Assembly (NCBI RefSeq): GCF_056746865.1
Contig: NZ_CM163382.1
Length of the DNA stretch: 64,000 nucleotides
Direction: 5' to 3' (one strand)
The notes under the pieces were generated by a model. It made no database searches and was not told where the DNA came from. It saw nothing but the letters and a program-made list of their open reading frames with translations. Position 1 is the first letter of the stretch, and the number at the start of each line of letters is the position of its first letter. The translations under genes were made by a program, and so were the position numbers. Of this stretch, positions 1,729-45,319 are shown in pieces.

Positions 1729-4015
<2,287 letters not shown>

Positions 4016-9560: not shown

Positions 9561-11847
<2,287 letters not shown>

Positions 11848-20115: not shown

Positions 20116-21639
20116 TTAAATGCTGGCGAACGCCATTGCCACTTCTGTAAAGCGCGATGTATACGTGTTTCTGGTCTCCGTCCTCAGATAGGGATTACCT
20201 TCGGGTAGCCGCCAGCGGAACAGCTTCTTGCCTTGCCCCACCAACCGGTACAGTATTTCGCCGCTGAGCTTGCCGTGATTGGTTTTACCAAATAAAACCC
20301 ACGTTTTGCTCTGACCCGGTTTCGGTGATTTACACCACCACCTCATCAGGGAAGCGATACCTGTACGGTATTTGCGGGCCAGCCAGTGAGCCAGCTTCCA
20401 GAACACGACACGGTCGATATAACTGAAGACTTTGGCCTTAAAATCAACGAACTGATAGAACATGGCCCAGCCTTTCAGTTTTCGGTTGAGTTGTTCAGCC
20501 ATATCGACTTTGCTTTCACTGTAGTTGCCTGATAACAGTGCTGTCAGCGATGCGGCGAAGTTTCTGGCTTTCTCCTGCGGGATCGTTGAGACCACTCGCA
20601 TCTCGCCATAACGACTGCGTTTGCGAATGATCCTGTGCCCCAGAAAGATAAAGCCGTCATTAACATGGGTGATTTTAGTCTTATCCATGTTCAGCCTGAG
20701 TTTCAGACTGCCTTCGAGCACACCCCGACACTCCTCCCTGATGGCTTCCGCCTGTGCTTTGGTGCCTTTGACGATGAGGACAAAATCATCGGCATAGCGG
20801 CAGTACGCCACCGCGGGTTTCCACTGCCAGTTTTCTCTGACCGCCGTACTTCGGCCCCGTTGGATACTGTTATTCCAGTACCACCGATCTTTTCTGGCTT
20901 TCCCGCTCAGGTAGCGCTCATGCAGGTATTGATCGAACTCATTCAGCATGATGTTCGATAATAGCGGCGATATAACACCGCCCTGTGGCACACCTTCACT
21001 GGCCGCCCGAAAGAGACCGACATCGATATGTCCCGCCTTGATGGTTTTCCACAGCAGAGTCATGAAACGTGCGTCACTGATCCTGCGGCGTACAGCCTTC
21101 ATCAGCAGTCGATGATGTACGGTGTCGAAGTAACTGGACAGGTCGCCTTCAATCACCCAGCGTCCCCGGGTTTCACCACAGTCTGTGAGCTGTAATTTCA
21201 CCGTGCGGATCGCGTGGTGGACACTGCTCTCAGGCCGGAAGCCATATGAGAGCGTATGAAAATCACTCTCCCATATCGGCTCCATCGCCATCAGCATGGC
21301 CCGCTGAACAATACGATCCCGCAACGCGGGGATACCCAGTGGTCGCAGTTTGCCGTTGCTTTTAGGGATGTAAACCCGTCTGGCGGGCAAGGGCTGGTAG
21401 TGGCCTGAGAGTAATTCATCCCTGAGGATTTGCAGCTCAACAGCCAGTCTGGCCTGTAGCATTGTTTTGTTCACGCCATCAACGCCGGGGGTATGGGCCC
21501 CCTTTGATGAAAGCGTGATCCGCGCCGCTTCAGCCAGCCATTCTGGTTGTGTTATCAGACGCAGCAGCCGTTGAATCCGTAGGGACGGATCGGTGGCTGC
21601 CCATGTGGCAAGCTTGCGTTGCATTTCGCTGATTATCAA
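20116..21639 (-). CDS. Group II intron-encoded protein (reverse transcriptase with maturase domain); TTG start
   Basis: RT motifs including the YADD box (AVAYCRYADDFVLIV) and GKLRPLGIPALRDRIVQ; located in intron domain IV. Confidence 0.85.
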   Translation of the reverse strand: MIISEMQRKLATWAATDPSLRIQRLLRLITQPEWLAEAARITLSSKGAHTPGVDGVNKTMLQARLAVELQILRDELLSGHYQPLPARRVYIPKSNGKLRPLGIPALRDRIVQRAMLMAMEPIWESDFHTLSYGFRPESSVHHAIRTVKLQLTDCGETRGRWVIEGDLSSYFDTVHHRLLMKAVRRRISDARFMTLLWKTIKAGHIDVGLFRAASEGVPQGGVISPLLSNIMLNEFDQYLHERYLSGKARKDRWYWNNSIQRGRSTAVRENWQWKPAVAYCRYADDFVLIVKGTKAQAEAIREECRGVLEGSLKLRLNMDKTKITHVNDGFIFLGHRIIRKRSRYGEMRVVSTIPQEKARNFAASLTALLSGNYSESKVDMAEQLNRKLKGWAMFYQFVDFKAKVFSYIDRVVFWKLAHWLARKYRTGIASLMRWWCKSPKPGQSKTWVLFGKTNHGKLSGEILYRLVGQGKKLFRWRLPEGNPYLRTETRNTYTSRFTEVAMAFASI

Positions 21640-34156: not shown

Positions 34157-35245
34157 TAGACTGGCCCCCTGAATCTCCAGACAATCAATATCACTTAAAT
34201 AAGTGATAGTCTTAATACTAGTTTCTAGACTAGTCATTGGAGAATAGATGATTGATGTCTTAGGGCCGGAGAAACGCAGACGGCGTACTACACAGGAAAA
34301 GATCGCTATTGTTCAGCAGAGCTTTGAACCGGGAATGACGGTCTCCCTTGTTGCCCGGGGATGGGGAGTAAGCTTAGTCAGCCGTTGTCTCCGGGTGTCG
34401 CGTGCGCAGTTGCACGTCATTCTCAGACGAACCGATGACTGGAAAGATGGTCGCCGCAGCCGTCACTCAGATGATACGGATGTGCTTCTCCGTATACACC
34501 ATGTTATCGGAGAGCTGCCCACGTATGGTTATCGTCGGGTATGGGCGCTGCTTCGCAGACAGGCCGAACTTGATGGTATGCCTGCTATCAATGCCAAACG
34601 TGTTTACCGGATCATGCGCCAGAATGCGCTGTTGCTTGAGCGAAAAACCGCTGTACCGCCATCGAAACGGGCACATACTGGCAAAGTGGCCGTGAAAGAA
34701 AGCAATCAACGATGGTGCTCTGACGGGTTCGAGTTCCGCTGTGATAACGGAGAAAAACTGGGGGTCACGTTCGCGCTGGACTGCTGTGACCGTGAGGCAC
34801 TGCACTGGGCGGTCACTACGGGCGGCTTCGACAGTGAAACAGTACAGGACGTCATGCTGGGAGCGGTGGAACGCCGCTTCGGCAGCGAGCTTCCGACATC
34901 TCCAGTGGAGTGGCTGACGGATAATGGTTCATGCTACCGGGCTAATGAAACACGCCAGTTCGCCCGGATGCTGGGACTTGAACCGAAGAACACGGCGGTG
35001 CGGAGTCCGGAGAGTAACGGCATAGCAGAGAGCTTCGTGAAAACGATAAAGCGTGATTACATCAGTATCATGCCCAAACCAGACGGGTTAACGGCAGCAA
35101 AGAACCTTGCAGAGGCGTTCGAGCATTATAACGAATGGCATCCGCATAGTGCACTGGGTTATCGCTCGCCACGGGAATATCTACGGCAGCGGGCCAGTAA
35201 TGGGTTAAGTGATAACAGGTGTCTGGAAATATAGGGGCAAATCCA
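34157..35245 (+). mobile_element. IS2 deletion derivative (1,089 bp instead of ~1,331 bp)
   Basis: IS2 ends TAGACTGGCCCCCTGAATCTCCAGACAA... and ...CTGGAAATATAGGGGCAAATCCA; internal deletion between two TTGCCCGG repeats. Confidence 0.85.
34248..35234 (+). CDS. IS2 InsC(1-37)::InsD in-frame fusion transposase created by the internal deletion
   Basis: [37 protein letters not shown] joined directly to [21 protein letters not shown]... (InsD). Confidence 0.8.
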
Positions 35246-35440
35246 ATGGCGCAGATACGCTTGCGGATCGATACCATTCAGACAGCAGGTCCGTTCACTA
35301 CCGTAATCGCTGCCGAAGAACACATTGATTGCCCCTCAATAATCCTGCCGTCAACGTCAAAATTGCTGGTCGGGCTCGACTTATTTAATTGTGTAAACAG
35401 GGCCTCTCAGCGAAAGGCCCTTATGCATCACCTGACGTCG

Positions 35441-36007
35441 TTAAAAGTCACTACACCCAAGATGACGTTCAATGGCACCATGCGATTCAATGTAAGCCTG
35501 GGCCGTCTGTTCCAGTACACCAGGCTCAGCGTTGTATGTGTTAGCTGCATCAAATACCAACGACAGCACTTCAGGATACACAACCAGATGTGTAATGGAG
35601 TTATCTTCACCCAATACTTTTCCCCACGCCTGCTCAATCAGATTTCTGAGAGCCACCACCTCACGACTCTTACACCAGACATCGTTATTAAGTAGCAGTA
35701 CCATAAGATAAGGAGTGGTATCGTTAGCCACAGCTTCCCTACTCCAGAGATAATATAAAGGGGCGGGCTCAACAGATTTATCTTTACGTCGCTTGCACTG
35801 CAAATATTCAGAAATTAGTCTATGCAGTTCACCAGTAAAATCAGCCATCAGAGAGGGAATTGCCTTGTTCATACCTGGGCAAGGTATTAATTTAAATTGT
35901 AATAATTTAATTTTAGGATGTGTAGCTGCAGCCCGATACAGAGTTGCAAGGACATACTTTTGCCAGAGGGCGTTACAGGAAAGCTTAACGTTTGATTCTG
36001 TATACAT
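35441..36007 (-). CDS. Hypothetical protein (188 aa), AT-rich island gene
   Basis: ORF followed by a hairpin (35398-35422); no family recognised. Confidence 0.45.
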   Translation of the reverse strand: MYTESNVKLSCNALWQKYVLATLYRAAATHPKIKLLQFKLIPCPGMNKAIPSLMADFTGELHRLISEYLQCKRRKDKSVEPAPLYYLWSREAVANDTTPYLMVLLLNNDVWCKSREVVALRNLIEQAWGKVLGEDNSITHLVVYPEVLSLVFDAANTYNAEPGVLEQTAQAYIESHGAIERHLGCSDF

Positions 36008-36034
36008 AATAAATCACCTTACAGTTACAATAGG

Positions 36035-36649
36035 TCAAAAACCGCTGTAGCCAAAGTTACGCTGGCCTGATGCTTTAGTGTCGAGCTTCGTCAGATAATC
36101 CAGACGTGCCAATAAGCGCTGATATTGCTCAGGGAAATCAGGATCGTTAATATCCAGGATGTAACGTCCATTAGCAGGGAAATGAACTAGTCCCTGGTGA
36201 TCTTCCAGTTCTAACCCTAAGGCACTGTACCAGGCTCCGGTAATTAACCCTCTCAGGGTGTCAGAGCGCTCATAGTCTCCCAGGTGGTAATAGGCGTCTT
36301 TGTTAAAAAAAAGGCAGACGTGATAATGACATTTAAAGGACTGCGTATATTCTTTCGCCCAGATAATACAAACCGACGTTGCGTAGGTGCGTTTGCCTTG
36401 TTGTTTTTTACGGTGTTGATCTGCATTAATTTTCGCATTCAGCGAGTTACGGAAACGAGATATCTCTCCGGGACTCAGGTTAGGAAAACAGGTAATGGTA
36501 TCCCCGTTGTCAATCACGGGAGGATAATGGAGATCCACCCGTATTGCCGTTATTCTGGGATGTTTCTGGAAGAGGTTATTCACCTGGTTTCTTATTTTTA
36601 ACCCGTGAGCCTCATGACATTCACCGTAAAGAGTTTCAATCGTAATCAT
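36035..36649 (-). CDS. YagK/YfjJ-like (inovirus Gp2-type) prophage protein, tentative
   Basis: Size (~204 aa) and position match the yagK/yfjJ genes of CP4-type elements; family call from memory only. Confidence 0.45.
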   Translation of the reverse strand: MITIETLYGECHEAHGLKIRNQVNNLFQKHPRITAIRVDLHYPPVIDNGDTITCFPNLSPGEISRFRNSLNAKINADQHRKKQQGKRTYATSVCIIWAKEYTQSFKCHYHVCLFFNKDAYYHLGDYERSDTLRGLITGAWYSALGLELEDHQGLVHFPANGRYILDINDPDFPEQYQRLLARLDYLTKLDTKASGQRNFGYSGF

Positions 36650-36739
36650 GTTAATATTCCTTTTGCTTTCAGAGATAAGCTAATAGTTAACCTACCCAAT
36701 ACACAACAGAAGCAGATATTAATATTCGTATCAGTAGTT

Positions 36740-36845
36740 CCCAGAGGGATATATAACCCTCTGGGCGTCAATTAAGAAAAACGCTACTGCCTATTGTTAC
36801 ATTAGAGAACAGGATGATGTTACACAGTTACATTAGAACGTTCTA
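36740..36845. promoter_or_regulatory. Iteron/operator-like repeat cluster in a 380-bp AT-rich intergenic region
   Basis: Palindrome CCCAGAGGG-atatataa-CCCTCTGGG (36740-36765); direct repeats GTTACATTAGA(G)AAC at 36796 and 36827; 12-bp palindrome TAGAACGTTCTA (36834-36845). Confidence 0.45.
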
Positions 36846-37030
36846 AAACATTAAACAGAGTTATGATCTACACACAACTAATTATTTGGTATCAGAATAC
36901 CATTAGCTCTATTAGTACATCATATCCATCATTACACATATACTATACATCACAGATATAATATATATTACCTATCCAACGCACATGTATTTATAACTCC
37001 ATTGCCAATAGCTACAAGGACTATAAAATG

Positions 37031-37591
37031 TTACTCTGCAGTTAGATCAACAATACCTTTATCCCAGTGTCTTTTTACAGTGGATAAACTGATGCTTAAT
37101 TTTCTGGCTGTTTGTGACTGACTGAACCCCTGCAATTTCAACTGTCTGATATTTTTACTATGAATACTCCCTTCTTTCCTTCCTGGTTTTCTTTTAATTT
37201 TCCGGATACTGATGTCGGGAATTTTTCCTCTAATATCTGTAGGTAAAATCATCCCGGTGAGTACCACAGGAATATCATCACCATCCGGCAACTCTGATGA
37301 CGTAAAAAAGCAAATATTAATACCTTGTCTGATACTTAAAGATAAAACCTCCTGTATTTTTTCCGGCGTATTACCAAAACAAGTTAACGATTTAGTAATC
37401 AGAATATCACCCCTTTGCATATCCTGCGTCAGGAGTCGAACTAACCGTTTTCTGTCTGCCAGAGTATAATCCGGGCGACCCAATTCGCCTGTTAACTGCA
37501 ATAGTGGTTCTTTAAAATATCTCTGAATCATGGATTTTAAGCGATTAAGTTTTGACCATTTTTCAGAGTCTATGTATGCAAAACTCGCCAT
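37031..37591 (-). CDS. Serine-recombinase (resolvase/invertase) homolog with C-terminal HTH, lacking the catalytic residues
   Basis: Aligns to gamma-delta resolvase (GDILITKSLTCFGN vs GDVILVKKLDRLGR; C-terminal HTH ...QTARKLSISLSTVKRHW) but YARVST is replaced by YIDSEK and DR..R by TC..N. Confidence 0.6.
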   Translation of the reverse strand: MASFAYIDSEKWSKLNRLKSMIQRYFKEPLLQLTGELGRPDYTLADRKRLVRLLTQDMQRGDILITKSLTCFGNTPEKIQEVLSLSIRQGINICFFTSSELPDGDDIPVVLTGMILPTDIRGKIPDISIRKIKRKPGRKEGSIHSKNIRQLKLQGFSQSQTARKLSISLSTVKRHWDKGIVDLTAE

Positions 37592-37812
37592 AATGCCTCA
37601 AACTGGTGTCATGAATTAATTATTGAACCTGTTTTTTCCTGAGTCGCATTACTCTTTTCTAAGGGAGGCTCTCCAGATACATCGGAAAAGTACTCGATAA
37701 AAGAGTTGGCCACTCCCGGGTAATGATTGCTCTCTTTAACCTCAGAAAGCGGTTTCTGTTCATCATTTACACCACGATTTCTGGGTTATGAATAAATCTA
37801 CGCGGGCCATAA

Positions 37813-38559
37813 TCATTCATCTTCAAATGGGTTAATAATAATAACATCTCCACCTGTTCTGGAACTTTGTGAAACTTCCTCTGTTCTCAGAACAGGCACT
37901 ATTACAGCCTTATTATTGATATAAAAAATCGGAATATGAAAAGTACAAAATCCTGTACTACGAATCTGATGTCGCCTCACTGTTTCTTTCGTACCATACT
38001 CAATCAACTCATCTATCGGCAGGCAAACTGAATTGCAAAAGTCAAAAAAATAATCCCCAAAAACACTGGTTTTAATCAGAATGGTTTTATAAAACCCTCC
38101 TGCACGATTCAGGGTATGGGAAACTTTTCTGTTCGTGTAAATACAAATTGCCTTCTCAACTTTATAATATTCCAGCATTAAGGTCGCATTCTCTTTAATT
38201 CCCTTTTTCTCTGCAACTCCCATAGCATTTCTGGTGCTTTCATGAGGAAATATCTTTCTATCGAGAACATCATATTCATATTTGATATGCGATTTATAAA
38301 TGCTATGAAAAAACTCTCCTTTTGTTATTTCAGGCTTTGTCCGTTGCACAAATGGTTCCTCATTAAAAAACTGACGTAGCTTATCCTCTATATCAGTTAT
38401 AGCAGCAATATTTTCATTTATCCTGTTTAAAACAGGAGCCCCTAGCTTTAAACACTCTTTAATCGCTGCTGAAAATGAGCATTTTTTTAAATGCTGATAC
38501 TTTTTAATTACATCAGCTTCATATGTTTCTGCAAGAGAGAAAGAGACACGTTTCATCAT
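37813..38559 (-). CDS. Hypothetical protein with N-terminal ribbon-helix-helix-like domain (248 aa)
   Basis: N-terminus MMKRVSFSLAETYEADVIKKYQHLKKCSFSAAIKECLKLG has the beta-strand/helix pattern of RHH (CopG/Arc) domains; the remainder is unassigned. Confidence 0.45.
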   Translation of the reverse strand: MMKRVSFSLAETYEADVIKKYQHLKKCSFSAAIKECLKLGAPVLNRINENIAAITDIEDKLRQFFNEEPFVQRTKPEITKGEFFHSIYKSHIKYEYDVLDRKIFPHESTRNAMGVAEKKGIKENATLMLEYYKVEKAICIYTNRKVSHTLNRAGGFYKTILIKTSVFGDYFFDFCNSVCLPIDELIEYGTKETVRRHQIRSTGFCTFHIPIFYINNKAVIVPVLRTEEVSQSSRTGGDVIIINPFEDE

Positions 38560-38621
38560 GAAACTCCTTTTTAATTATAAAATTAAAATATAGAAATATA
38601 TATTATTCTGATACTATAAGG

Positions 38622-38849
38622 TTAATACTGACTAATCCACCACAATAGATCACTTAATAACCACCCACAGGATTTCTTTCCAATAGTTTTACGTGGCGGG
38701 AATTTTCCTTCACGTTCCAGTTTCCAGGCTTGTGAACGAGAAATAGACGTAATTTTCTGGCGTTCCTTTTCTCGTACCAGTCTGTCACAGGTGTATCCAT
38801 AGATCTTCAAAATTGATAAACGGTTCTCATCTCTTAACGGCTTCCACAT
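38622..38849 (-). CDS. AlpA-family prophage transcriptional regulator
   Basis: ...ITSISRSQAWKLEREGKFPPRKTIGKKSCGWLLSDLLWWI matches the AlpA pattern (SRSTIYRL..GKFP.P.KLG.RSV.W...V..WI). Confidence 0.65.
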   Translation of the reverse strand: MWKPLRDENRLSILKIYGYTCDRLVREKERQKITSISRSQAWKLEREGKFPPRKTIGKKSCGWLLSDLLWWISQY

Positions 38850-39628
38850 ATTGCTCTCCTTATATATTCATGATTTTCAGATTGTATATGCATGTGAGCT
38901 GCTCAAATCACTACATCTATCTGTAGTGGTATGCTGTTGAACAGCACCAGCAACTCACGAGCAAAACAATACATTTGCACAACCAAGAAATCAAATTGCG
39001 AGAAATGATTTAATTAACTGACTTCTAATAACACAATAACAACAAAGAAAGTCACAATATAAAAATAACTTAAACAATGCTTTTTGGTATACAAAATAAA
39101 AATCAAAATCACAATATTCGTAGGTTATTTTATGCAGACAAAAACAAAAAAAATCTTGTTATAATCTATGATATCAAGAGGAGGGGTAGTGACCAAAAAT
39201 TCTCCCCAGAAAAGCCCCCACAACATTAGTTTGAAAACGTGACGAAGTTCACAAAATTATCTTCTGGCGATAATAGAACTTGTAAGAGGGAGTTGATTTT
39301 TGCCAACTTTCTAAAGCTAAAGTGCAGACAAAAGATAATAATTGAATGAAAACGATACATATTTTCAGATGAAAGTGACGTGACTGTAGAGGGCTATAAC
39401 CGTAAAATCATTTGCGTCCTGAGCAATATGCAACAAAAGGGAATGCTCGTAAAAAAATCAGGAATAAACGCTAAGGATATCGTATTAGATTCAGCATCGT
39501 ATAATGCCACTGCATAACTGATTCCCATTTCGTAGAGGCTGTTAACTCTGTATCAATGTCCTGACAAAGGACTGTATCAAGTTTCTCTACTGGAAACAGC
39601 TATGCAATAGACGGAAGAATTTAACATT

Positions 39629-41233
39629 ATGGTAACTAAAAAGGTAAAAACAAACCACCCGTACTATCGTGTTTTATCCGGCACCTCCATGCCGTTTCCC
39701 CACATACATGAAGCTGTTTCCGAACAGTTGCTTCTACTCATTTTCAAAGCACGCAGATTGTATCTGGATCCAGAATATCGTCCTTGGTTTGATGAACAAC
39801 ATCGGATTCTCTCGGCATTACGCGCTAACACAAAACTCCAAAGTATTTTAGAGAAAAACAGAGAGAACTACTCCATAAGTGAGACCGATAATCCACTATC
39901 TAAAGATCTGTATGCTGCTTTTCAGGTTATGTGCCATTTATACAATGGTTTTGATAACAGACTCGTCAGCCTGAAAACCTGGGGAGATATGAACAGGGAA
40001 CCAACAGCAAAATTTGTCGGCCAAAATAGTGGTGGCTGGAAAACACCTGAGATGGAAGAATTCGTCAGAAACGATTTGTTCAATATTCTGACAGATTGTA
40101 AAGCTCATTGCTCACCACTTCCCGCTCTGGTTCGACAAGGATATTGCCATCAGGATCTTTCTGTTGCGCACTCATGTACTAAAGAATTACTGGAACAACT
40201 GAACCGATACCATCAAATTGATGAATCAGCGATACTTGCCAGAACCCTTGGTTTGGCTATTAACAACTGCTATCACTCAGAAACAGAGATTCCTGAATGG
40301 CTTTCTCCTTTTGAAAATGAATACAAAAGTCCCTGGAATTGTGAGAAACCAGATACTAACGATGTGAGTAAACTTAGAAAACAATTGCTAACAATCGGGC
40401 GTACAGAATTCGTGGACAAAATGTTTTCGCTAGCCAACAAAAATGCAACAAAGATAATATATGATGGATACGTTAAACTTTATGCTCTGGAAATATATGA
40501 ATGGTTAAATAAATTAGTGCAATATTTTAAAGGAAATGATTTTATTCGTTACACCTGGAAGTTCACAACAATTATTTCCGATGAAAGTGACACGATTGAA
40601 AACACCACCGCATGGGAAAAAGACTATTGTCAAATCACTATACAGCGTGATGAACTTCTGAAACTGATTTATACCAATACCCTGCAGGATGCAGCAATGA
40701 ATCTTGCTGATTGCCTGCAACAGGCATACACAGAACCGTTAAAAATGGAAATAAATTATCCAGGAATAAACATTGATGCAAAAGAGCGTAAAATTAGAAA
40801 ATCTATTGAATTCAGGAGCGAACTGAATAACTTCACAAACATCATGAAACAACTGGAAATATTTGAAAAATGGTATAACGCCAATAAAATTCTGTTGGTA
40901 AGTAACAAAAAGATACGTACAGAAAAGATTGACGTGAATATTCGTCTTGCAGGACTAAAAGGCTATGATCTGAATGAAGGTATACCTGATGGTCAGGGAC
41001 GCAGAATTAAAGATGGTGTAAATGAACTTGTCAAGGCAGATGGCAGTCTACAACTTCCACAAGATATCAGTGACACTTCGCTTAACCGTTACCGTCAAGC
41101 AGTTCAACACATTATTAAGGATGAGATCGACACGTTGCTGATAGCACAGAGGGAAAAAAATAAAATAAATCCATATAGCGAAGATAGATACTCGATACGA
41201 CCTTTATGGGGAAAATGTCTGGTCGAACAGTAA
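39629..41233 (+). CDS. Hypothetical protein (534 aa), AT-rich, in the integrase-proximal cargo slot; function unknown
   Basis: Long ORF with SD GGAAG upstream; no recognisable catalytic motifs apart from a possible R-x4-H (RQAVQH) near the C-terminus. Confidence 0.6.
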   Translation: MVTKKVKTNHPYYRVLSGTSMPFPHIHEAVSEQLLLLIFKARRLYLDPEYRPWFDEQHRILSALRANTKLQSILEKNRENYSISETDNPLSKDLYAAFQVMCHLYNGFDNRLVSLKTWGDMNREPTAKFVGQNSGGWKTPEMEEFVRNDLFNILTDCKAHCSPLPALVRQGYCHQDLSVAHSCTKELLEQLNRYHQIDESAILARTLGLAINNCYHSETEIPEWLSPFENEYKSPWNCEKPDTNDVSKLRKQLLTIGRTEFVDKMFSLANKNATKIIYDGYVKLYALEIYEWLNKLVQYFKGNDFIRYTWKFTTIISDESDTIENTTAWEKDYCQITIQRDELLKLIYTNTLQDAAMNLADCLQQAYTEPLKMEINYPGINIDAKERKIRKSIEFRSELNNFTNIMKQLEIFEKWYNANKILLVSNKKIRTEKIDVNIRLAGLKGYDLNEGIPDGQGRRIKDGVNELVKADGSLQLPQDISDTSLNRYRQAVQHIIKDEIDTLLIAQREKNKINPYSEDRYSIRPLWGKCLVEQ

Positions 41234-41315
41234 CTCACTGAGAAAGGGGATAGCAGTTCGCTATCCCCAAAGGAGACTTTCCAGCAAGATCTCAAAAAAT
41301 GAGACACTCAGCAAA

Positions 41316-41942
41316 TTATGCGGCTTTACCATTAACAGATTCAGCCACAAGAACGACAGCGTGTCTGTTTCGCTCAGGATGTTCACTCCAGATTTCTGAT
41401 TCCGGGATGCTTTTCCCGTCATAACTGATCCGTTCGCCATCAAACGGGTAATACCGTGCGGAATCAGTATCTAAAATAAACACCTTCAGATTCGTTGAAC
41501 GACGCGCAATATGCTGCCAGAGAGCTTTACCTCCTTCATATTGCTCGTTATCACTTAATAGTACAACGCCCGCTTTTGTGACTATCGTTTCATAAACAAA
41601 CGTTGCAAGACCAACATCACGTACAGCGCCATCGACAACAATCCCTTCAATCTGAGCAACATCCTGTTCTTCCCAGAATTTCTGGACAAACACGCCTTCA
41701 AGCCGGGGACGACGCTGAAGCTCCAGAGTGGCAACAACCTTATGGCGAACATCACCATCAATAACAGAAGGTGCAGCTTCGATTACCGCAGCAAACGGAG
41801 TCTTTGGATCCCAGATGATCTGGTAAAGCACGCCCTGAATAGTTACTCCATCCAGTATCGAAAAACGACGAGCTACAGTAGCAGGGGAGTAAGACATTGG
41901 AATTACAGCCATTTTTGAATCCCCTCTGAGTAATACCGGCAC
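41316..41942 (-). CDS. Hypothetical protein (198-208 aa); GTG start at 41942 or ATG at 41912
   Basis: ORF convergent with the 534-aa gene; both candidate starts have an SD; no family recognised. Confidence 0.5.
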   Translation of the reverse strand: MPVLLRGDSKMAVIPMSYSPATVARRFSILDGVTIQGVLYQIIWDPKTPFAAVIEAAPSVIDGDVRHKVVATLELQRRPRLEGVFVQKFWEEQDVAQIEGIVVDGAVRDVGLATFVYETIVTKAGVVLLSDNEQYEGGKALWQHIARRSTNLKVFILDTDSARYYPFDGERISYDGKSIPESEIWSEHPERNRHAVVLVAESVNGKAA

Positions 41943-42041
41943 GAAAATTTACCTCAATAATTATAGTAAACAATACAAGAACCAAGTGCATCAACAATAC
42001 CCATCAATTGTACACAATTCGTACAGCAACCAGGAACTCCC

Positions 42042-43358
42042 TCACCTTCTGCCAAACAGATTGACAACATTATTGCCTGTTTGCTGTTGATAGTTATTAA
42101 CCCGGTCCTCCCAGATCTCAAGTGCTCTGCGTTTTTCTGGCAAATAATCGTATCGATCATAATGTTTTGAACTGACATCGTTCAACGCATGATTTTGAAT
42201 ACGATCGCGGATTTCCTTACTGATCCCAGCTTCTCCCATTAACGTTTTACAGGTCCGACGTAAGTCACGTGCTGTAAAAATTTTAAAGTCAGGATTAAAA
42301 GCCCGGAAATACATGATAGCGCGAGCCAGACTGTCCGTACGAACCGGACGCTTACCATTAGTCGAAAGTGGAAAAATGTAAGGGCTGGATTTTTCTTTTG
42401 TTAACTCCTGCACACAGGATAATTCCTGTAATGCTGATTCAGTCAACGGTATCAAATGCTCTCGTTTATTTTTAGAGACATCAGCAGTCACCAGCAGCGT
42501 TTTTTGTTGAAAATCAACATCACACCACTGACTGGCGATCATTTCGAAAGGACGTTGCCCTCCGGTATAGATACAGAATCGGATCAAATGTTGCATCAAT
42601 AATCCAACGTTGGTTGCTTCAGCAAAATGTTCCATTAGAAAACGCAACTCTTCAAGTGTCAGCCAGGTATCACCGACTTTTTCAGCAGATGACTGTTTCG
42701 GTATCACTGACACCGGATTTGCCTCCAGCCCAAAAGTAATCCCTACACTTGTGTTCATCGGATCGTTATCTGCTTTCAGTCCATAGTTAAATGCAGCCAT
42801 CAGGTAAGAACGGATCCGGTTAGAGTGAACCACAGCACCGCGCTGAATGATCCCGGCCAGGATATGTTTAATCTGTCCGGAAGTCACATCTTTAGCTTTA
42901 GTTTCACGGGGGATCACTGTATAGCATTCATTTTCAAGGCGTTTCAGAACATCCTGCCATGTCCTCTTATTATCAATTTTCATTTTGTTAACATAACCAT
43001 GAATCAATGCTTCAAATGAGCCCTGTGATTGATGGAGTTGTATCCGCTGCTGTTCTGCAAACTGTTGTCGTTCCAGTTCTGCCTGGGGATCCTTTCCTTC
43101 AATGAGCCAGGCACCATACTTTTTTGTCAGTTCATTCGCTGTGGCCAGTTTCATCTCAGGCCATATACCCAATTGAATGAATCTTTCTTTTTTCCCTTTT
43201 TCCACGTAATAGCGGAAATAGAAAATCTTGCTGCCAGAAGGCTGAACTTTGACACCAAGTCGTCCAGTGCCACGTTGAGAGCTGTTGCTCCAGACATAGA
43301 ACGATGTCTTTTTTGCTTTCAATGCTCGGATGGCTGTTTCAGTAAGATTGACGGCCAT
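42042..43358 (-). CDS. int: P4-type tyrosine integrase
   Basis: 438-aa protein with N-terminal arm-binding domain (KIFYFRYY...) and C-terminal tyrosine-recombinase domain; adjacent to the tRNA-derived attachment core. Confidence 0.85.
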   Translation of the reverse strand: MAVNLTETAIRALKAKKTSFYVWSNSSQRGTGRLGVKVQPSGSKIFYFRYYVEKGKKERFIQLGIWPEMKLATANELTKKYGAWLIEGKDPQAELERQQFAEQQRIQLHQSQGSFEALIHGYVNKMKIDNKRTWQDVLKRLENECYTVIPRETKAKDVTSGQIKHILAGIIQRGAVVHSNRIRSYLMAAFNYGLKADNDPMNTSVGITFGLEANPVSVIPKQSSAEKVGDTWLTLEELRFLMEHFAEATNVGLLMQHLIRFCIYTGGQRPFEMIASQWCDVDFQQKTLLVTADVSKNKREHLIPLTESALQELSCVQELTKEKSSPYIFPLSTNGKRPVRTDSLARAIMYFRAFNPDFKIFTARDLRRTCKTLMGEAGISKEIRDRIQNHALNDVSSKHYDRYDYLPEKRRALEIWEDRVNNYQQQTGNNVVNLFGRR

Positions 43359-43405
43359 AGAACCTCTTTTCTAAACCAGTAACAATCAGAATAACTCGTG
43401 ATTTT

Positions 43406-43428
43406 GGGTCAGGTAATGGGTCAGGTAA
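43406..43428. repeat. Tandem direct repeats GGGTCAGGTAA x2 between integrase and the att core (candidate integrase arm sites)
   Basis: Two 11-bp copies separated by 1 bp, located 48 bp upstream of the integrase start. Confidence 0.5.
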
Positions 43429-43554
43429 CGATCGTACAATGAAGAAAAAACGGAACCAAGCGGAGACAGGGAAAATCACATAATTTATTGATTACAAACA
43501 ACTAATAAAGCAATCACGAACAAACAAAAACAATATAGAACGAACTTGCCTCAT

Positions 43555-43601
43555 GACTCATAATCGCTTGGTCGCTGGTTCAAGTCCAGCAGGGGCCACC
43601 A
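43555..43601 (+). other. ileX: 3' 47 nt of tRNA-Ile(CAU) (ileX-type): island/backbone junction (att core); the 5' part of the tRNA is absent here
   Basis: GACTCATAATCGCTTGGTCGCTGGTTCAAGTCCAGCAGGGGCCACCA matches the remembered 3' portion of E. coli tRNA-Ile2 from the anticodon loop to CCA; sequence upstream does not match the tRNA. Confidence 0.7.
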
Positions 43602-43610
43602 GATATAGCA

Positions 43611-43645
43611 AAGGCTGACGAGAAATCGTCAGCCTTTTTCTTTTT
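43611..43645 (+). terminator. Rho-independent terminator (native ileX terminator)
   Basis: Hairpin AAGGCTGACG-agaaat-CGTCAGCCTT followed by TTTTTCTTTTT. Confidence 0.75.
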
Positions 43646-43654
43646 ATATATCAG

Positions 43655-44419
43655 TTACTTTGCGTGCCAGTAAGCCGCTGCACGTACCCGCTGTGGATCA
43701 TACTGTTCCGCTTCAAAGCGGCGGCTTAAATTCTTAACGACTTTGCCTTCGCCGGTTATCCAGATGAAGTAATCATCGGCAGGGATTTGCATCTGCGCCA
43801 GACGCGCATCTACCGCCTGCTCATCATGTGCCAGCCATTCGATATTAAAACCATCAAGGTGCGCGAGATAATCCTGACAGGCGTGATCCCGCACGCTAAC
43901 CAGCGCGCTAACTTGCGGTTTAACAGCAAGTTTGCTCAACGTTTCCAGGCGGCGGCGCAGTGCGGGCATTCCGGATTCATCGCAGACATACAGCTGATAC
44001 GCGTAATCCTCTGGCATCACCAGCGAACCGCGCGGACCTGCCACCGTGAGTTTATCGCCCGGTTGCGCCTGCATTGCCCAGCTGCTGGCGACGCCACCTT
44101 CGTGAATAAAGAAATCAATCGCCAGTTCATGGCGTAGTTCGTCATACAGCGGCGTATAGTCACGCGACGGTGGGCGTGGTCCTTCCGGCCAGACGATGCC
44201 CTCTTCCGTTACCGTTGGCGGCACAAAGTGAGCATCAGATTGAGGAAAGAAGAGTTTGCTGTGATCGTCAAAGCCGCGCGATGTAAAACCGTCCAGCGCC
44301 TCGCCGCCAAGGACAATGCGCTGAAAACCGGCGCTAATACGCTCAGCGCGTAGCACAGTCAGTTCACGGAAGCGCAGATCATTGCGAACGCGCTGCGGGT
44401 AGCGGGGGGAGTTATTCAT
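43655..44419 (-). CDS. yqjH: Siderophore-interacting protein / NADPH-dependent ferric chelate reductase
   Basis: 254-aa protein matching remembered E. coli K-12 YqjH; conserved position after ileX. Confidence 0.9.
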   Translation of the reverse strand: MNNSPRYPQRVRNDLRFRELTVLRAERISAGFQRIVLGGEALDGFTSRGFDDHSKLFFPQSDAHFVPPTVTEEGIVWPEGPRPPSRDYTPLYDELRHELAIDFFIHEGGVASSWAMQAQPGDKLTVAGPRGSLVMPEDYAYQLYVCDESGMPALRRRLETLSKLAVKPQVSALVSVRDHACQDYLAHLDGFNIEWLAHDEQAVDARLAQMQIPADDYFIWITGEGKVVKNLSRRFEAEQYDPQRVRAAAYWHAK

Positions 44420-44564
44420 TGTTATCGCCTTCGTGATAGTAATCAGATATATCTAAATAAATTTCGCAAATGATAATGATTGTTAATCATGATAAATGCA
44501 AGCGATTTGTAGAACTGATATATCTGAAGTATGAGAAGACATTCAGCGTCGTAGCAAGGCTGTT

Positions 44565-44595
44565 GGATGCGGCGTGAACGAATTATCCGGCCTGG
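44565..44595. repeat. REP element
   Basis: GGATGCGGCGTGAACGAATTATCCGGCCTGG. Confidence 0.6.
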
Positions 44596-44695
44596 ATGTG
44601 AGGTGTATTCACGTTTAAAAATCATTTTTATACTTGCAAAAGCGCTCATATCAGATATAAATTAGATATATCTAATTAAGCAAAAGGAGGCTGAT

Positions 44696-45319
44696 ATGAG
44701 CCATCATCACGAAGGGTGTTGTAAACATGAAGGCCAGCCACGCCATGAAGGCTGCTGCAAAGGTGAGAAGTCAGAACATGAGCACTGCGGACACGGTCAC
44801 CAGCATGAACACGGTCAATGCTGCGGTGGTCGCCACGGTCGCGGCGGCGGTCGTCGGCAGCGTTTCTTTGGTCACGGTGAATTGCGTCTGGTGATTCTGG
44901 ATATTCTCTCGCGCGATGACAGCCACGGTTACGAATTGATTAAAGCGATTGAGAATCTAACCCAGGGGAATTACACCCCAAGCCCGGGTGTCATCTACCC
45001 GACGCTGGATTTTCTGCAGGAGCAGTCGCTGATTACCATCCGCGAAGAGGAAGGTGGTAAGAAGCAGATTGCGTTGACCGAACAGGGCGCGCAGTGGCTG
45101 GAAGAAAACCGCGAACAGGTGGAGATGATCGAAGAACGCATCAAAGCGCGTTGCGTTGGTGCTGCACTCCGCCAGAACCCGCAAATGAAGCGGGCGCTGG
45201 ATAATTTTAAAGCGGTGCTGGATTTACGCGTCAACCAGAGCGATATCACTGATGCACAAATAAAAAAGATCATTGCGGTGATCGACCGCGCCGCTTTTGA
45301 TATTACGCAACTGGATTAA
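44696..45319 (+). CDS. yqjI: PadR-family transcriptional regulator with His/Cys-rich N-terminus
   Basis: MSHHHEGCCKHEGQPRHEGCCKGEK... matches remembered K-12 YqjI. Confidence 0.9.
   Translation: MSHHHEGCCKHEGQPRHEGCCKGEKSEHEHCGHGHQHEHGQCCGGRHGRGGGRRQRFFGHGELRLVILDILSRDDSHGYELIKAIENLTQGNYTPSPGVIYPTLDFLQEQSLITIREEEGGKKQIALTEQGAQWLEENREQVEMIEERIKARCVGAALRQNPQMKRALDNFKAVLDLRVNQSDITDAQIKKIIAVIDRAAFDITQLD

What the first reader, a model, noticed from the sequence alone, without database searches (positions are those of the whole stretch)
41316..41942. Convergent 208-aa orphan of different base composition abutting the integrase
A second unassigned ORF lies tail-to-tail with the 534-aa gene, separated by an 82-bp spacer containing the hairpin GGGGATAGC-agttc-GCTATCCCC (41247-41268). 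It ends 100 bp from the integrase stop. Its GC content looks clearly higher than the 534-aa gene, suggesting independent acquisition. It could be a separate cargo gene, an immunity/antitoxin-like partner, or a gene belonging to the integrase unit; I recognise no domain.
Basis: seen in the sequence. Interest (0 to 1): 0.45.

Follow-up and report, generated by a model that had tools for sequence, protein, structure and literature searches.

The report
Mobile-element acetyltransferase-like gene beside an integrase
The "orphan" is a real, strongly conserved gene for an acetyltransferase-fold (GNAT) protein of untested function that travels on P1-like phage-plasmids, plasmids, phages and E. coli genomic islands, so it is an uncharacterised accessory gene of mobile DNA rather than a one-off oddity.

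Summary
The ORF, the tail-to-tail layout, the 82-nt spacer, the hairpin and the GC difference are all present. It is not an orphan. It matches phage family phrog_7522 (E 6e-124). It occurs in 805 of 5,426 complete E. coli genomes, and 87%-identical copies fill the pmgF slot of P1-like phage-plasmids. P1's own PmgF matches only residues 4-66. dN/dS is 0.03-0.16.

The GC excess (46.6% vs 38.3%) lies in codon positions 1-2. GC3 is the same (0.36 vs 0.35), so composition does not show separate acquisition. Recombination boundaries do: identity to sister islands is 85-100% across integrase plus this gene and falls to 60-79% at its stop codon.

In E. coli the 534-aa neighbour is almost always adjacent (679 of 689 genomes). 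Outside this island family each gene occurs without the other.

Best reading: a stand-alone acetyl-CoA-dependent acyltransferase carried as cargo, possibly for counter-defence or host takeover. The substrate is unknown. The 10-codon N-terminal extension (GTG 41942) is probably genuine, so RefSeq's 198-aa call looks short.

The parts
41316..41942 (-). Coding sequence for a 208-aa GNAT-fold protein (family phrog_7522). RefSeq calls the 198-aa form starting at ATG 41912 (WP_000268404.1, 'hypothetical protein').
41913..41942 (-). Ten-codon N-terminal extension (V/M)PVLLRGDSK. It is probably translated, which makes GTG 41942 the likely true start.
   Evidence: Homologues at about 44-73% amino-acid identity (Enterobacter plasmid L007, L005, Buttiauxella L023) start with ATG at this position behind AAGGA/AGGA. 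They encode MPVL(L/Y)xGDSxM with synonymous codon changes. The same N-terminal residues are kept in the 50%-level representatives. The thrW allele lacks the extension and must start at the internal ATG.
41951..41955 (-). Shine-Dalgarno-like GAGGT, 8 nt before GTG 41942. A perfect TATAAT lies at 41960-41965 on the same strand and is a possible -10 box.
   Evidence: Read directly from the sequence. The equivalent sequence in SJ46/RCS47 is TTGAGGTAGATGTTTGTG. Promoter function is inferred. The consensus scan found no full -35/-10 pair here.
41234..41315 (.). 82-nt convergent intergenic spacer. Sequence similarity to sister islands breaks here.
   Evidence: Coordinates. Identity to L012, L011 and L013 is 60-63% in 41200-41299, 85-90% in 41300-41399 and 86-94% in 41400-41799.
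41246..41268 (.). Perfect 9-bp stem with a 5-nt loop; a possible two-way transcription stop.
   Evidence: Sequence. Fold of the minus-strand RNA: -36.3 kcal/mol, z -5.4. Not called a terminator by the T-run criterion.
39629..41233 (+). Convergent 534-aa neighbour. It is an all-helical protein with no family assignment and no structural relative. It is linked to this gene in E. coli islands only.
42042..43358 (-). P4-type tyrosine integrase, on the same strand and immediately upstream.
   Evidence: Arm-DNA-bind_3, Phage_int_M and Phage_integrase domains. 98% identical in E. albertii and O103:H2 islands.
43556..43601 (+). The 3' 46 nt of tRNA-Ile (ileX-type, running from the CAU anticodon loop to CCA). 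This is the attachment-site repeat that marks the island's right end.
   Evidence: Unique exact match in the window. ARAGORN finds no intact tRNA anywhere in the window. Assignment to ileX rests on my own knowledge of the E. coli tRNA sequence and on the mug-ileX-nfeF gene order.

Best explanation
The ORF encodes a stand-alone enzyme of the GNAT (GCN5-related N-acyltransferase) fold. The enzyme most probably uses acetyl-CoA (or another acyl-CoA) to modify a target in the cell that the mobile element enters or lives in.

The gene is self-contained accessory cargo (a 'moron'). It recombines as a roughly 0.65-kb cassette among P1-like phage-plasmids (where it fills the pmgF slot), plasmids, lytic-phage-like genomes and the int-proximal end of the AlpA/YfjI/Gp2-type islands at ileX and thrW in Escherichia.

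My preferred biological role is host takeover or counter-defence, meaning chemical inactivation of a host or rival-element protein or nucleic acid. Phage GNATs such as AcrVA5, Rac and Mom work this way.

Shown here: the gene is real and under strong purifying selection; the fold is GNAT; the cofactor-type motif is present; the gene is distributed independently of any fixed neighbour.

Inferred: catalytic activity, acyl donor, substrate, and the counter-defence role.
For: Fold:
- BFVD matches are about 200-aa phage proteins. The strongest four have no informative name or 'NAT_SF domain' (one of them is 878 aa); 'Putative GCN5-related N-acetyltransferase' appears only at E 0.056 and above.

Sequence:
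- R98-D-V-G101-L-A103 fits the GNAT motif A, Q/R-x-x-G-x-G/A. R98, G101 and A103 are invariant in 18 relatives at 65-97% identity.
- Inspection of the displayed rows of the 57-member alignment suggests an [RQK]xxGx[GA]-like pattern is often kept.
- The family-wide invariant residues Q87, S120 and W132, with near-invariant D121 and G128, lie on or just after the predicted beta4, beta5 and alpha4 elements that frame the GNAT active site.
- Pfam Acetyltransf_1 matches weakly here (E 0.05). It reaches E < 0.01 in 5 of 57 members.
- Some submitters already label members 'N-acetyltransferase'.

Selection: dN/dS is 0.03-0.16.

Stand-alone and mobile:
- The SJ46 and RCS47 copies sit after bplB, where P1 has pmgF.
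- rlfA-rlfB-pmgF is one of eight hypervariable regions of P1-like phage-plasmids (PMC9603915).
- P1 pmgF is non-essential (PMC10695390).
- Another P1/P7-like contig has it next to lpa.
- An Enterobacter F-like plasmid carries it about 3 kb from TraM/SLT, beside a KlcA/ArdB-type anti-restriction gene.
- A Salmonella element carries it next to a NikA-like gene.
- A phage-like contig has it among denV, dCMP deaminase and NADAR genes.
- Ralstonia jumbo phage RsoM2USA has a relative.
- In Buttiauxella it is a single-gene insert.

Precedents for phage GNATs that act on host or defence targets: Rac (PMC7552054) and Mom (PMC7261163).
Against: - No biochemical or genetic data exist for any family member.
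- The Pfam GNAT score is below the curated cut-off (14.3 vs 20.7 bits). No PDB relative is detectable by sequence.
- The N-terminal arm is beta-rich and lacks the usual alpha1-alpha2 helices of GNATs. A 55-residue C-terminal extension is modelled only at moderate confidence.
- Motif A is not strictly conserved in the distant members, so some may not bind CoA.
- In the Enterobacter plasmid the gene is on the strand opposite the KlcA-like gene. Samuel et al. report that leading-region anti-defence genes all share one orientation (PMC11541004), so that context is weak support.
- Fifteen percent of E. coli genomes keep the gene in resident islands. That fits a host-beneficial (defence or resistance) role as well as a counter-defence role.
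- Near-perfect adjacency to the 534-aa gene in E. coli could reflect functional coupling.
Confidence: 0.4

Rival explanations
1. It is one half of a two-gene system with the convergent 534-aa protein. It might modify and thereby silence or activate that protein, or act as the effector of a sensor. Together they would form a defence or addiction module of the island.
For: - Of the 689 E. coli genomes with a 534-aa homologue, 679 have it adjacent to this gene in the same arrangement.
- The pair is kept at two different tRNA sites, ileX and thrW, and in E. albertii.
- The pair persists although the 534-aa allele differs by about 40% in amino-acid sequence.
- The 534-aa family sits in moron or hotspot-type positions elsewhere, for example the gpV-gpS gap of a P2-like prophage.
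Against: - All E. coli cases belong to one family of related islands (AlpA, YfjI, Gp2 backbone), so adjacency may be inherited rather than selected.
- Divergence is discordant: 93% vs 57-61% identity, with the identity break exactly between the two genes. Co-evolving partners would not be expected to show this.
- Each gene occurs without the other in every context sampled outside these islands.
- In Klebsiella and Citrobacter the 534-aa family instead has a conserved acidic 145-aa neighbour that is absent from the window.
- Neither protein matches a PADLOC model.
Confidence: 0.15
2. It is a host-protective gene. It could be a prophage- or island-borne superinfection-exclusion or abortive-infection acetyltransferase, for example one that acetylates aminoacyl-tRNA as the GNAT toxins TacT, AtaT and KacT do. 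Alternatively it could modify a phage component.
For: - Carried by temperate elements and by islands that also carry defence cargo, such as a TOTE conflict-system protein and a KAP NTPase in sister islands.
- Retained in 15% of E. coli genomes.
Against: - There is no conserved adjacent antitoxin-like small gene. Upstream neighbours differ in every context.
- The toxin structures score no better than generic GNATs.
- There is no PADLOC hit.
- Relatives occur in lytic-phage-like and jumbo-phage genomes, where a host-defence gene is less expected.
Confidence: 0.15
3. It detoxifies a small molecule. It would be an acetyltransferase conferring resistance to an antibiotic, microcin or other toxic metabolite, carried as ordinary resistance cargo.
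For: - One chromosomal homologue abuts a bacteriocin-type export cluster: a C39-peptidase ABC exporter, an RND adaptor, two glycosyltransferases and two small ORFs.
Against: - There is no sequence match to any named resistance family in NCBIfam or Pfam.
- The gene is not associated with resistance cassettes or integrons in any context seen.
- Its presence in lytic-phage-like genomes is hard to explain this way.
Confidence: 0.1
4. It is a non-catalytic GNAT-fold protein. It could be a binding or structural protein, in line with the old 'putative morphogenetic function' label of P1 pmgF.
For: - P1, P7 and many phage-plasmids keep only a 98-aa PmgF that matches residues 4-66 and lacks the cofactor-binding core. 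This suggests the N-terminal part may have a function of its own.
- In P1-like genomes the gene follows the tail and baseplate operon.
Against: - pmgF is non-essential for P1 growth (PMC10695390).
- The strongest family-wide conservation is in the catalytic-core region, not the N-terminal arm.
- The gene occurs in non-phage contexts, such as islands, a conjugative plasmid and the Buttiauxella chromosome, where there is no virion to build.
Confidence: 0.08
5. It is an accessory factor of the integrase, such as an excisionase or directionality factor.
For: - It lies 99 nt downstream of int on the same strand.
- It falls in the same high-identity block as int in ileX islands.
Against: - The fold is GNAT, not HTH or Xis.
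- An AlpA-family gene is present elsewhere in the island.
- The gene occurs at thrW with no integrase, and in phage-plasmids that do not integrate.
Confidence: 0.02

Closest known systems
GNAT (GCN5-related N-acyltransferase) superfamily, Pfam clan Acetyltrans / PF00583
   Different: The score is below Pfam's gathering threshold. The N-terminal arm is beta-rich in place of alpha1-alpha2. There is an extra beta-rich segment of about 55 residues after alpha4, with invariant Y164 and W175. No member has been characterised and the substrate is unknown.
Bacteriophage P1 PmgF (P1_gp053) and PHROG families phrog_7522 / phrog_7349
   Same: SJ46 and RCS47 carry an 87%-identical full-length copy exactly where P1 has pmgF, after bplB and facing the rlf/repL region. 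P1 PmgF is 45% identical over residues 4-66. The protein matches phrog_7522 at E 5.7e-124 and phrog_7349 at E 1.2e-11.
   Different: P1 PmgF is only 98 aa and lacks the whole cofactor-binding core. The window copy is in a chromosomal island, not a phage-plasmid. The 'putative morphogenetic function' label has no experimental basis, and pmgF is non-essential (PMC10695390).
Phage or mobile-element GNAT-fold effectors: AcrVA5 (acetylates Cas12a; from my own knowledge), Rac of phiKMV-like phages (PMC7552054), Mom of phage Mu (PMC7261163)
   Different: No detectable sequence relationship was seen, and Mom scores no better than generic GNATs. No target, phenotype or regulator (such as Com for Mom) is known here. 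The resemblance is one of kind, not of membership.
Type II toxin-antitoxin GNAT toxins (TacT, AtaT, ItaT, KacT)
   Different: No cognate antitoxin gene is conserved next to it in any context. No sequence match was found.

Membership tests
GNAT acyltransferase superfamily | Mixed alpha/beta GNAT fold with the beta4-alpha3-beta5-alpha4 core | tested here: met
   [not shown]
GNAT acyltransferase superfamily | Motif A, Q/R-x-x-G-x-G/A (pyrophosphate-binding loop for CoA) | tested here: met
   R98-D-V-G101-L-A103. R98, G101 and A103 are invariant in alignment A1. By eye, the displayed rows of A2 often keep an [RQK]xxGx[GA]-like pattern.
GNAT acyltransferase superfamily | Sequence match to a curated GNAT profile above its threshold | tested here: not met
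   Acetyltransf_1 scores 14.3 bits against a 20.7-bit cut-off, E 0.05. The best E among 57 members is 6e-4. A PDB profile search gives only one GNAT, at E 0.6.
GNAT acyltransferase superfamily | Acyl-CoA binding and acyl transfer to an amine or other acceptor | not testable with these tools
   Needs biochemistry.
phrog_7522 (phage protein family, unknown function) | Full-length profile match | tested here: met
   E 5.7e-124, protein residues 1-198 against profile positions 13-210. All 57 members of A2 match.
P1 PmgF (phrog_7349) | Homology to PmgF and the same genomic slot in P1-like genomes | tested here: inconclusive
   Only residues 4-66 match (45% identity; phrog_7349 at E 1.2e-11). Close full-length homologues occupy the pmgF slot in SJ46 and RCS47. 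The window gene itself is in an island and is twice as long.
Type II TA GNAT toxin (TacT/AtaT/KacT type) | Adjacent co-oriented cognate antitoxin gene (RHH/DUF1778 type) | tested here: not met
   Upstream here is the integrase. Neighbours differ in every context and none is conserved. Unrelated small ORFs upstream in L007 and L027 have no Pfam match.
Excisionase / recombination directionality factor | Small HTH or winged-helix Xis/AlpA-type protein | tested here: not met
   There is no HTH or Xis family hit and the fold is GNAT. AlpA (PF05930, E 2.5e-14) is a different gene, at 38622-38849.
Known anti-phage defence systems (PADLOC-DB v2) | Match to a defence-system protein model | tested here: not met
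   No hit at E <= 0.1 for this protein or for the 534-aa neighbour.
Plasmid leading-region anti-defence genes (Samuel et al. 2024) | Location in the leading region next to oriT, in the same orientation as the other anti-defence genes | tested here: inconclusive
   In Enterobacter plasmid L007 the gene is about 3 kb from TraM/SLT and beside an Antirestrict-family gene, but on the opposite strand. No F-type nic site was found. The orientation rule comes from PMC11541004.

The most novel reading that the evidence does not exclude
phrog_7522 could be a new family of single-gene, enzymatic counter-defence or host-takeover effectors. On this reading they would be acyltransferases that chemically disable a host immune or core component, shared by P1-like phage-plasmids, lytic and jumbo phages, plasmids and integrative islands. 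In Escherichia islands the enzyme might additionally be wired to the novel-fold 534-aa protein. The short P1 PmgF would then be a decayed or repurposed remnant of this effector.
Probability: 0.2. Interest if true: 0.65.

Novelty: new member of a known kind. Interest (0 to 1): 0.35.

Why it matters
One E. coli genome in seven carries this gene, as do roughly half of the plasmid records with any match (135 of 270 are full-length, mostly P1-like phage-plasmids), yet it is annotated 'hypothetical'.

Three practical results follow from recognising it as a conserved GNAT-fold enzyme that moves as a cassette between phage-plasmids, plasmids, phages and islands.
1. P1's long-unexplained pmgF gets a concrete, testable identity.
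2. A short list of residues is available for mutagenesis: R98, G101, S120, D121, Y164 and W175.
3. The gene is a candidate when screening for enzymatic anti-defence or host-modifying factors.

The work also shows that the neighbouring 534-aa protein has no detectable structural relative. Its pairing with this gene is confined to one island lineage, and that should guide how the pair is tested.

Tried and rejected
- Sequence libraries gave no function. Pfam gave only sub-threshold GNAT. NCBIfam and PADLOC gave nothing. PHROGs gave only 'unknown function' families. A PDB profile search gave nothing significant.
- The scan of GTDB species-representative genomes found a single locus, in E. albertii. 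It gave no breadth.
- Rfam found nothing at 35000-45000.
- The consensus terminator scan did not call the spacer hairpin.
- A search for an F-type oriT nic sequence in the Enterobacter plasmid found nothing. The 'leading region' placement therefore rests on gene order only.
- An 11.7-kb Salmonella 'plasmid' with a 100%-identical copy looked like a possible excised island. It is a linear contig that also carries aer, nfeR and nfeF, so it is chromosomal DNA.
- The excisionase idea was rejected.
- The toxin-antitoxin idea was rejected for lack of any conserved partner.
- A 210-aa gene downstream of the Citrobacter 534-aa homologue is not a hidden relative (hhalign probability 0.4%).
- The acidic 145-aa partner of the Klebsiella and Citrobacter 534-aa genes has no counterpart in the window or the E. 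coli islands.
- A literature search by accession numbers and PHROG id returned nothing.
- Base composition was rejected as evidence of separate acquisition, because GC3 is equal.
Full report
WHAT IS THERE

The window is Escherichia coli chromosome. The 4.7 kb around the finding is 100% identical to many complete E. coli genomes.

The ORF 41316..41942 (minus strand, 208 aa, GTG start) exists as described. It lies 99 nt downstream of a same-strand P4-type tyrosine integrase at 42042..43358, which has Arm-DNA-bind_3, Phage_int_M and Phage_integrase domains. It is tail-to-tail with the 534-aa ORF at 39629..41233. The spacer between them is 82 nt (41234-41315).

The spacer holds a perfect 9-bp/5-nt hairpin at 41246-41268. 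As RNA the spacer folds far better than shuffles: -36.3 kcal/mol, z -5.4. The consensus scan does not class it as an intrinsic terminator, because the T-tail is weak.

To the right of the integrase is the 3' 46 nt of an ileX-type tRNA-Ile (43556-43601), then nfeF, nfeR and aer. ARAGORN finds no intact tRNA in the window. The segment is therefore the integrase-proximal end of a large composite island inserted at ileX. The island backbone here is int, this gene, the 534-aa gene, AlpA, a 248-aa gene, a 186-aa HTH protein and two YagK/YfjJ (inovirus Gp2-type) genes.

IT IS A REAL GENE AND NOT AN ORPHAN

RefSeq annotates it as a 198-aa hypothetical protein, WP_000268404.1, starting at ATG 41912.

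- It has 159 relatives at E <= 1e-3 in the 90%-clustered database.
- It has 343 representatives in the 50%-clustered library, of which 92 are at E <= 1e-10.
- It matches PHROG family phrog_7522 end to end at E 5.7e-124. So do all 57 diverse relatives that I aligned.
- The gene is present in 805 of 5,426 complete E. coli genomes, at 731 chromosomal and 129 plasmid places.
- It is full-length in 135 PLSDB plasmid records, mostly about 90-100-kb non-mobilizable replicons.
- Pairwise dN/dS against six alleles is 0.03-0.16. Against the P1-like copies dS is saturated (about 2) while dN is only 0.06-0.08. This indicates strong purifying selection on the protein.

THE START CODON

In homologues at about 44-73% identity (Enterobacter plasmid L007, locus L005, Buttiauxella L023) the equivalent upstream codon is ATG, preceded by AAGGA or AGGA. 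The ten codons encode MPVL(L/Y)xGDSxM with synonymous differences. The same residues recur in the 50%-level representatives.

In the window, GAGGT (41951-41955) precedes GTG 41942 by 8 nt, and a TATAAT lies at 41960-41965. The thrW allele has unrelated sequence with stop codons upstream, so it must use the internal ATG. The extension is therefore dispensable in at least one lineage.

WHAT THE PROTEIN IS

No curated sequence family claims it. Pfam gives only Acetyltransf_1 at E 0.05, below threshold. NCBIfam and PADLOC give nothing. A profile search of PDB sequences gives nothing significant.

In the sequence, R98-D-V-G101-L-A103 fits the GNAT CoA-pyrophosphate motif Q/R-x-x-G-x-G/A, at the predicted beta4-alpha3 junction. 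R98, G101 and A103 are invariant among close relatives. By eye, the displayed rows of the distant alignment often keep an [RQK]xxGx[GA]-like pattern.

The columns invariant across 57 sequences at 22-87% identity are Q87, S120, W132, Y164 and W175. S9, R15, Y107, D121 and G128 are nearly invariant. Q87, S120, D121, G128 and W132 lie on or just after the predicted beta4, beta5 and alpha4 elements that frame the active site in GNATs. That mapping is my inference from the model's secondary structure and the standard GNAT topology.

Five of the 57 members reach E < 0.01 on Pfam Acetyltransf_1. Some submitters already call members 'N-acetyltransferase'.

The protein departs from textbook GNATs in two ways. 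Its N-terminal arm is beta-rich. It also has an extra segment of about 55 residues after alpha4.

I conclude that it has a GNAT fold and is probably an active acyl-CoA-dependent transferase. Activity and substrate are untested.

WHERE ELSE IT LIVES

- P1-like phage-plasmids SJ46 and RCS47. An 87%-identical copy sits directly after the structural genes 23-22-21-pmgG-bplB and faces the repL region. This is the slot that holds pmgF in P1. P1 and P7 PmgF (98 aa) match only residues 4-66, at 45% identity. They correspond to phrog_7349, so they lack the cofactor-binding core.
- The literature lists rlfA-rlfB-pmgF as one of eight hypervariable regions of P1-like phage-plasmids (PMC9603915). It reports replacements of this region (PMC6906374) and scores pmgF as non-essential (PMC10695390).
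- A second P1/P7-like contig, next to lpa.
- An Enterobacter F-like plasmid, about 3 kb from TraM/SLT and next to an Antirestrict (KlcA/ArdB-type) gene, but on the opposite strand.
- A Salmonella element, next to a NikA-like gene and a Cas3-like helicase.
- An Atlantibacter plasmid.
- A chromosomal site beside a bacteriocin-type exporter cluster.
- A single-gene insertion between rsmI and an aga-type cluster in Buttiauxella.
- A phage-like contig, among denV, dCMP deaminase and NADAR genes.
- Ralstonia jumbo phage RsoM2USA.

No neighbour is shared among these contexts. The gene works, or at least travels, on its own.

RELATION TO THE INTEGRASE AND TO THE 534-AA GENE

I aligned the window to sister islands in E. 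coli O103:H2 and E. albertii, both at ileX.

- Nucleotide identity is 85-100% from the tRNA fragment through int and this gene. It then falls to 60-79% at about 41300, which is this gene's stop codon, and stays low through the 534-aa gene and AlpA.
- At the protein level, int is 98% identical, this gene 93-94% and the 534-aa protein 60-61%.

In islands at thrW (strains RSHH22 and EC93) the gene is again 92-93% identical and convergent with a 57%-identical 534-aa homologue. In EC93 the two are separated by an IS256-family insertion. There is no integrase there: tRNA-Thr is 310 bp away, and similarity stops just upstream of ATG 41912. The gene is thus a cassette of about 0.65 kb with sharp boundaries.

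Counts across the complete E. coli genomes:
- 689 genomes have a 534-aa homologue.
- 679 have the two genes adjacent, with at least 80% of the 2,284-nt span matched in one place.
- The 129 plasmid copies of this gene lack the 534-aa gene.

Linkage in E. coli chromosomes is therefore almost complete. However, all cases belong to one family of related AlpA/YfjI/Gp2 islands.

Outside that family the 534-aa protein occurs without this gene:
- In the gpV-gpS gap of Klebsiella P2-like prophages.
- Next to IS110 in Serratia.
- At a chromosomal site near mnmE.
- On Klebsiella, Citrobacter and Raoultella plasmids.
- It is absent from sequenced phages.

In Klebsiella and Citrobacter its conserved neighbour is a divergent, very acidic 145-149-aa protein (64% identical between the two contexts). 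That protein has no counterpart in the window or in the E. coli islands.

I read the E. coli pairing as mainly inherited island architecture. A functional link is possible but unsupported.

BASE COMPOSITION

The GC difference is real (46.6% vs 38.3%) but it sits in codon positions 1 and 2: GC1 0.636 vs 0.475 and GC2 0.397 vs 0.327. It follows amino-acid content. G+A+R+P make up 27% of this protein vs 18% of the 534-aa protein, and F+Y+M+I+N+K make up 21% vs 32%.

GC3 is 0.364 vs 0.346. The flanking core genes have GC3 of 0.57-0.63. Both genes are equally 'foreign' at silent sites. Composition does not show separate acquisition; the recombination boundaries do.

HOW IT MOST LIKELY WORKS

Shown: a conserved, selected, GNAT-fold protein with a CoA-type motif, encoded by a gene that moves independently among several classes of mobile element.

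Inferred: it transfers an acyl group from acyl-CoA to a macromolecular or small-molecule target in the host cell.

Three observations favour a role that serves the element on entry, meaning host takeover or counter-defence. The gene recurs in variable accessory slots of phage-plasmids. It occurs near transfer origins and next to an anti-restriction gene on plasmids. It occurs in gene arrays that look like those of lytic phages. The precedents are phage GNATs: Rac (PMC7552054), Mom (PMC7261163) and, from my own knowledge, AcrVA5.

Three observations count against that reading. In the Enterobacter plasmid the gene has the opposite orientation to the anti-restriction gene, whereas leading-region anti-defence genes are reported to share one orientation (PMC11541004). 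The gene is stably retained in resident islands. There is no experimental evidence at all.

The rivals (partner of the 534-aa protein, host-protective or abortive-infection enzyme, small-molecule detoxification, non-catalytic protein, integrase accessory factor) are weighed in the structured fields.

COMPARISON WITH WHAT IS KNOWN, AND NOVELTY

The protein belongs to the GNAT superfamily by fold and motif, although it fails the curated sequence threshold. It is a member of phrog_7522, whose function is unknown. It is the full-length relative of P1 PmgF. It is not an excisionase, not a recognisable GNAT toxin (no antitoxin is conserved), and not part of any PADLOC defence system.

It is best filed as a new, uncharacterised member family of a known kind. 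Its value lies in giving pmgF an identity, in flagging a widespread candidate effector enzyme, and in showing how the neighbouring novel-fold gene should and should not be coupled to it.

Noticed in passing
[not shown]
   Followed up: partly
L003 (phage P1) 5995-6291; window 41715-41903 equivalent: P1/P7 PmgF (98 aa, 'putative morphogenetic function') matches only residues 4-66 of this GNAT-fold protein. SJ46, RCS47 and 135 plasmid records carry the full-length gene, in the same slot in SJ46 and RCS47. P1's pmgF therefore looks like an N-terminal remnant or a shortened variant lacking the cofactor-binding core.
   Followed up: partly
window 41913-41942: RefSeq starts the protein at ATG 41912 (198 aa). 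The upstream 10 codons are conserved as coding sequence, with ATG plus a Shine-Dalgarno sequence in homologues at about 44-73% identity. GTG 41942 (208 aa) is therefore probably the true start.
   Followed up: yes
window 43556-43601: Only the 3' 46 nt of an ileX-type tRNA-Ile gene is present next to the integrase, and no intact tRNA gene is found anywhere in the 64-kb window. The intact tRNA and the other island end must lie beyond the window. The island is therefore more than 43 kb long and composite.
   Followed up: partly
window 1729-3570 and 9561-11402: There are two copies of the same pair of adjacent transposase ORFs (348 aa with rve-type integrase core, 261 aa with DDE_Tnp_1). They flank a molybdopterin-oxidoreductase operon (811-aa catalytic subunit at 6772-9207). 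This may be a composite-transposon-like arrangement.
   Followed up: no
window 20116-21639 (-): A group II intron reverse transcriptase/maturase ORF (RVT_1 + GIIM) lies within the island. RefSeq marks the equivalent gene in a sister genome as a pseudogene with an internal stop.
   Followed up: no
window 37813-38559 (-) and 37031-37591 (-): Two further island genes are unassigned. One is a 248-aa protein with no family hit in any library. The other is a 186-aa protein with only a C-terminal resolvase-type HTH (HTH_7, E 3.7e-5) and a sub-threshold resolvase N-terminal match.
   Followed up: no
L009 (E. coli EC93 'plasmid' pCP127) and L013 (RSHH22 chromosome): A sister island at tRNA-Thr (thrW, next to proA) carries the same convergent gene pair but has no integrase between the tRNA and the GNAT-fold gene. 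In EC93 an IS256-family transposase is inserted between the two genes, and the proBA-thrW region is recorded on a 127-kb IncFIB replicon.
   Followed up: partly
L008 (CP101363.1, Salmonella enterica 'plasmid' pIndS102_4, 11,755 bp linear): This PLSDB record is 100% identical in all three proteins compared (integrase, GNAT-fold gene and the 534-aa gene) and carries the same island genes plus aer, nfeR and nfeF equivalents. It looks like a chromosomal contig filed as a plasmid, possibly of E. coli-like origin.
   Followed up: partly
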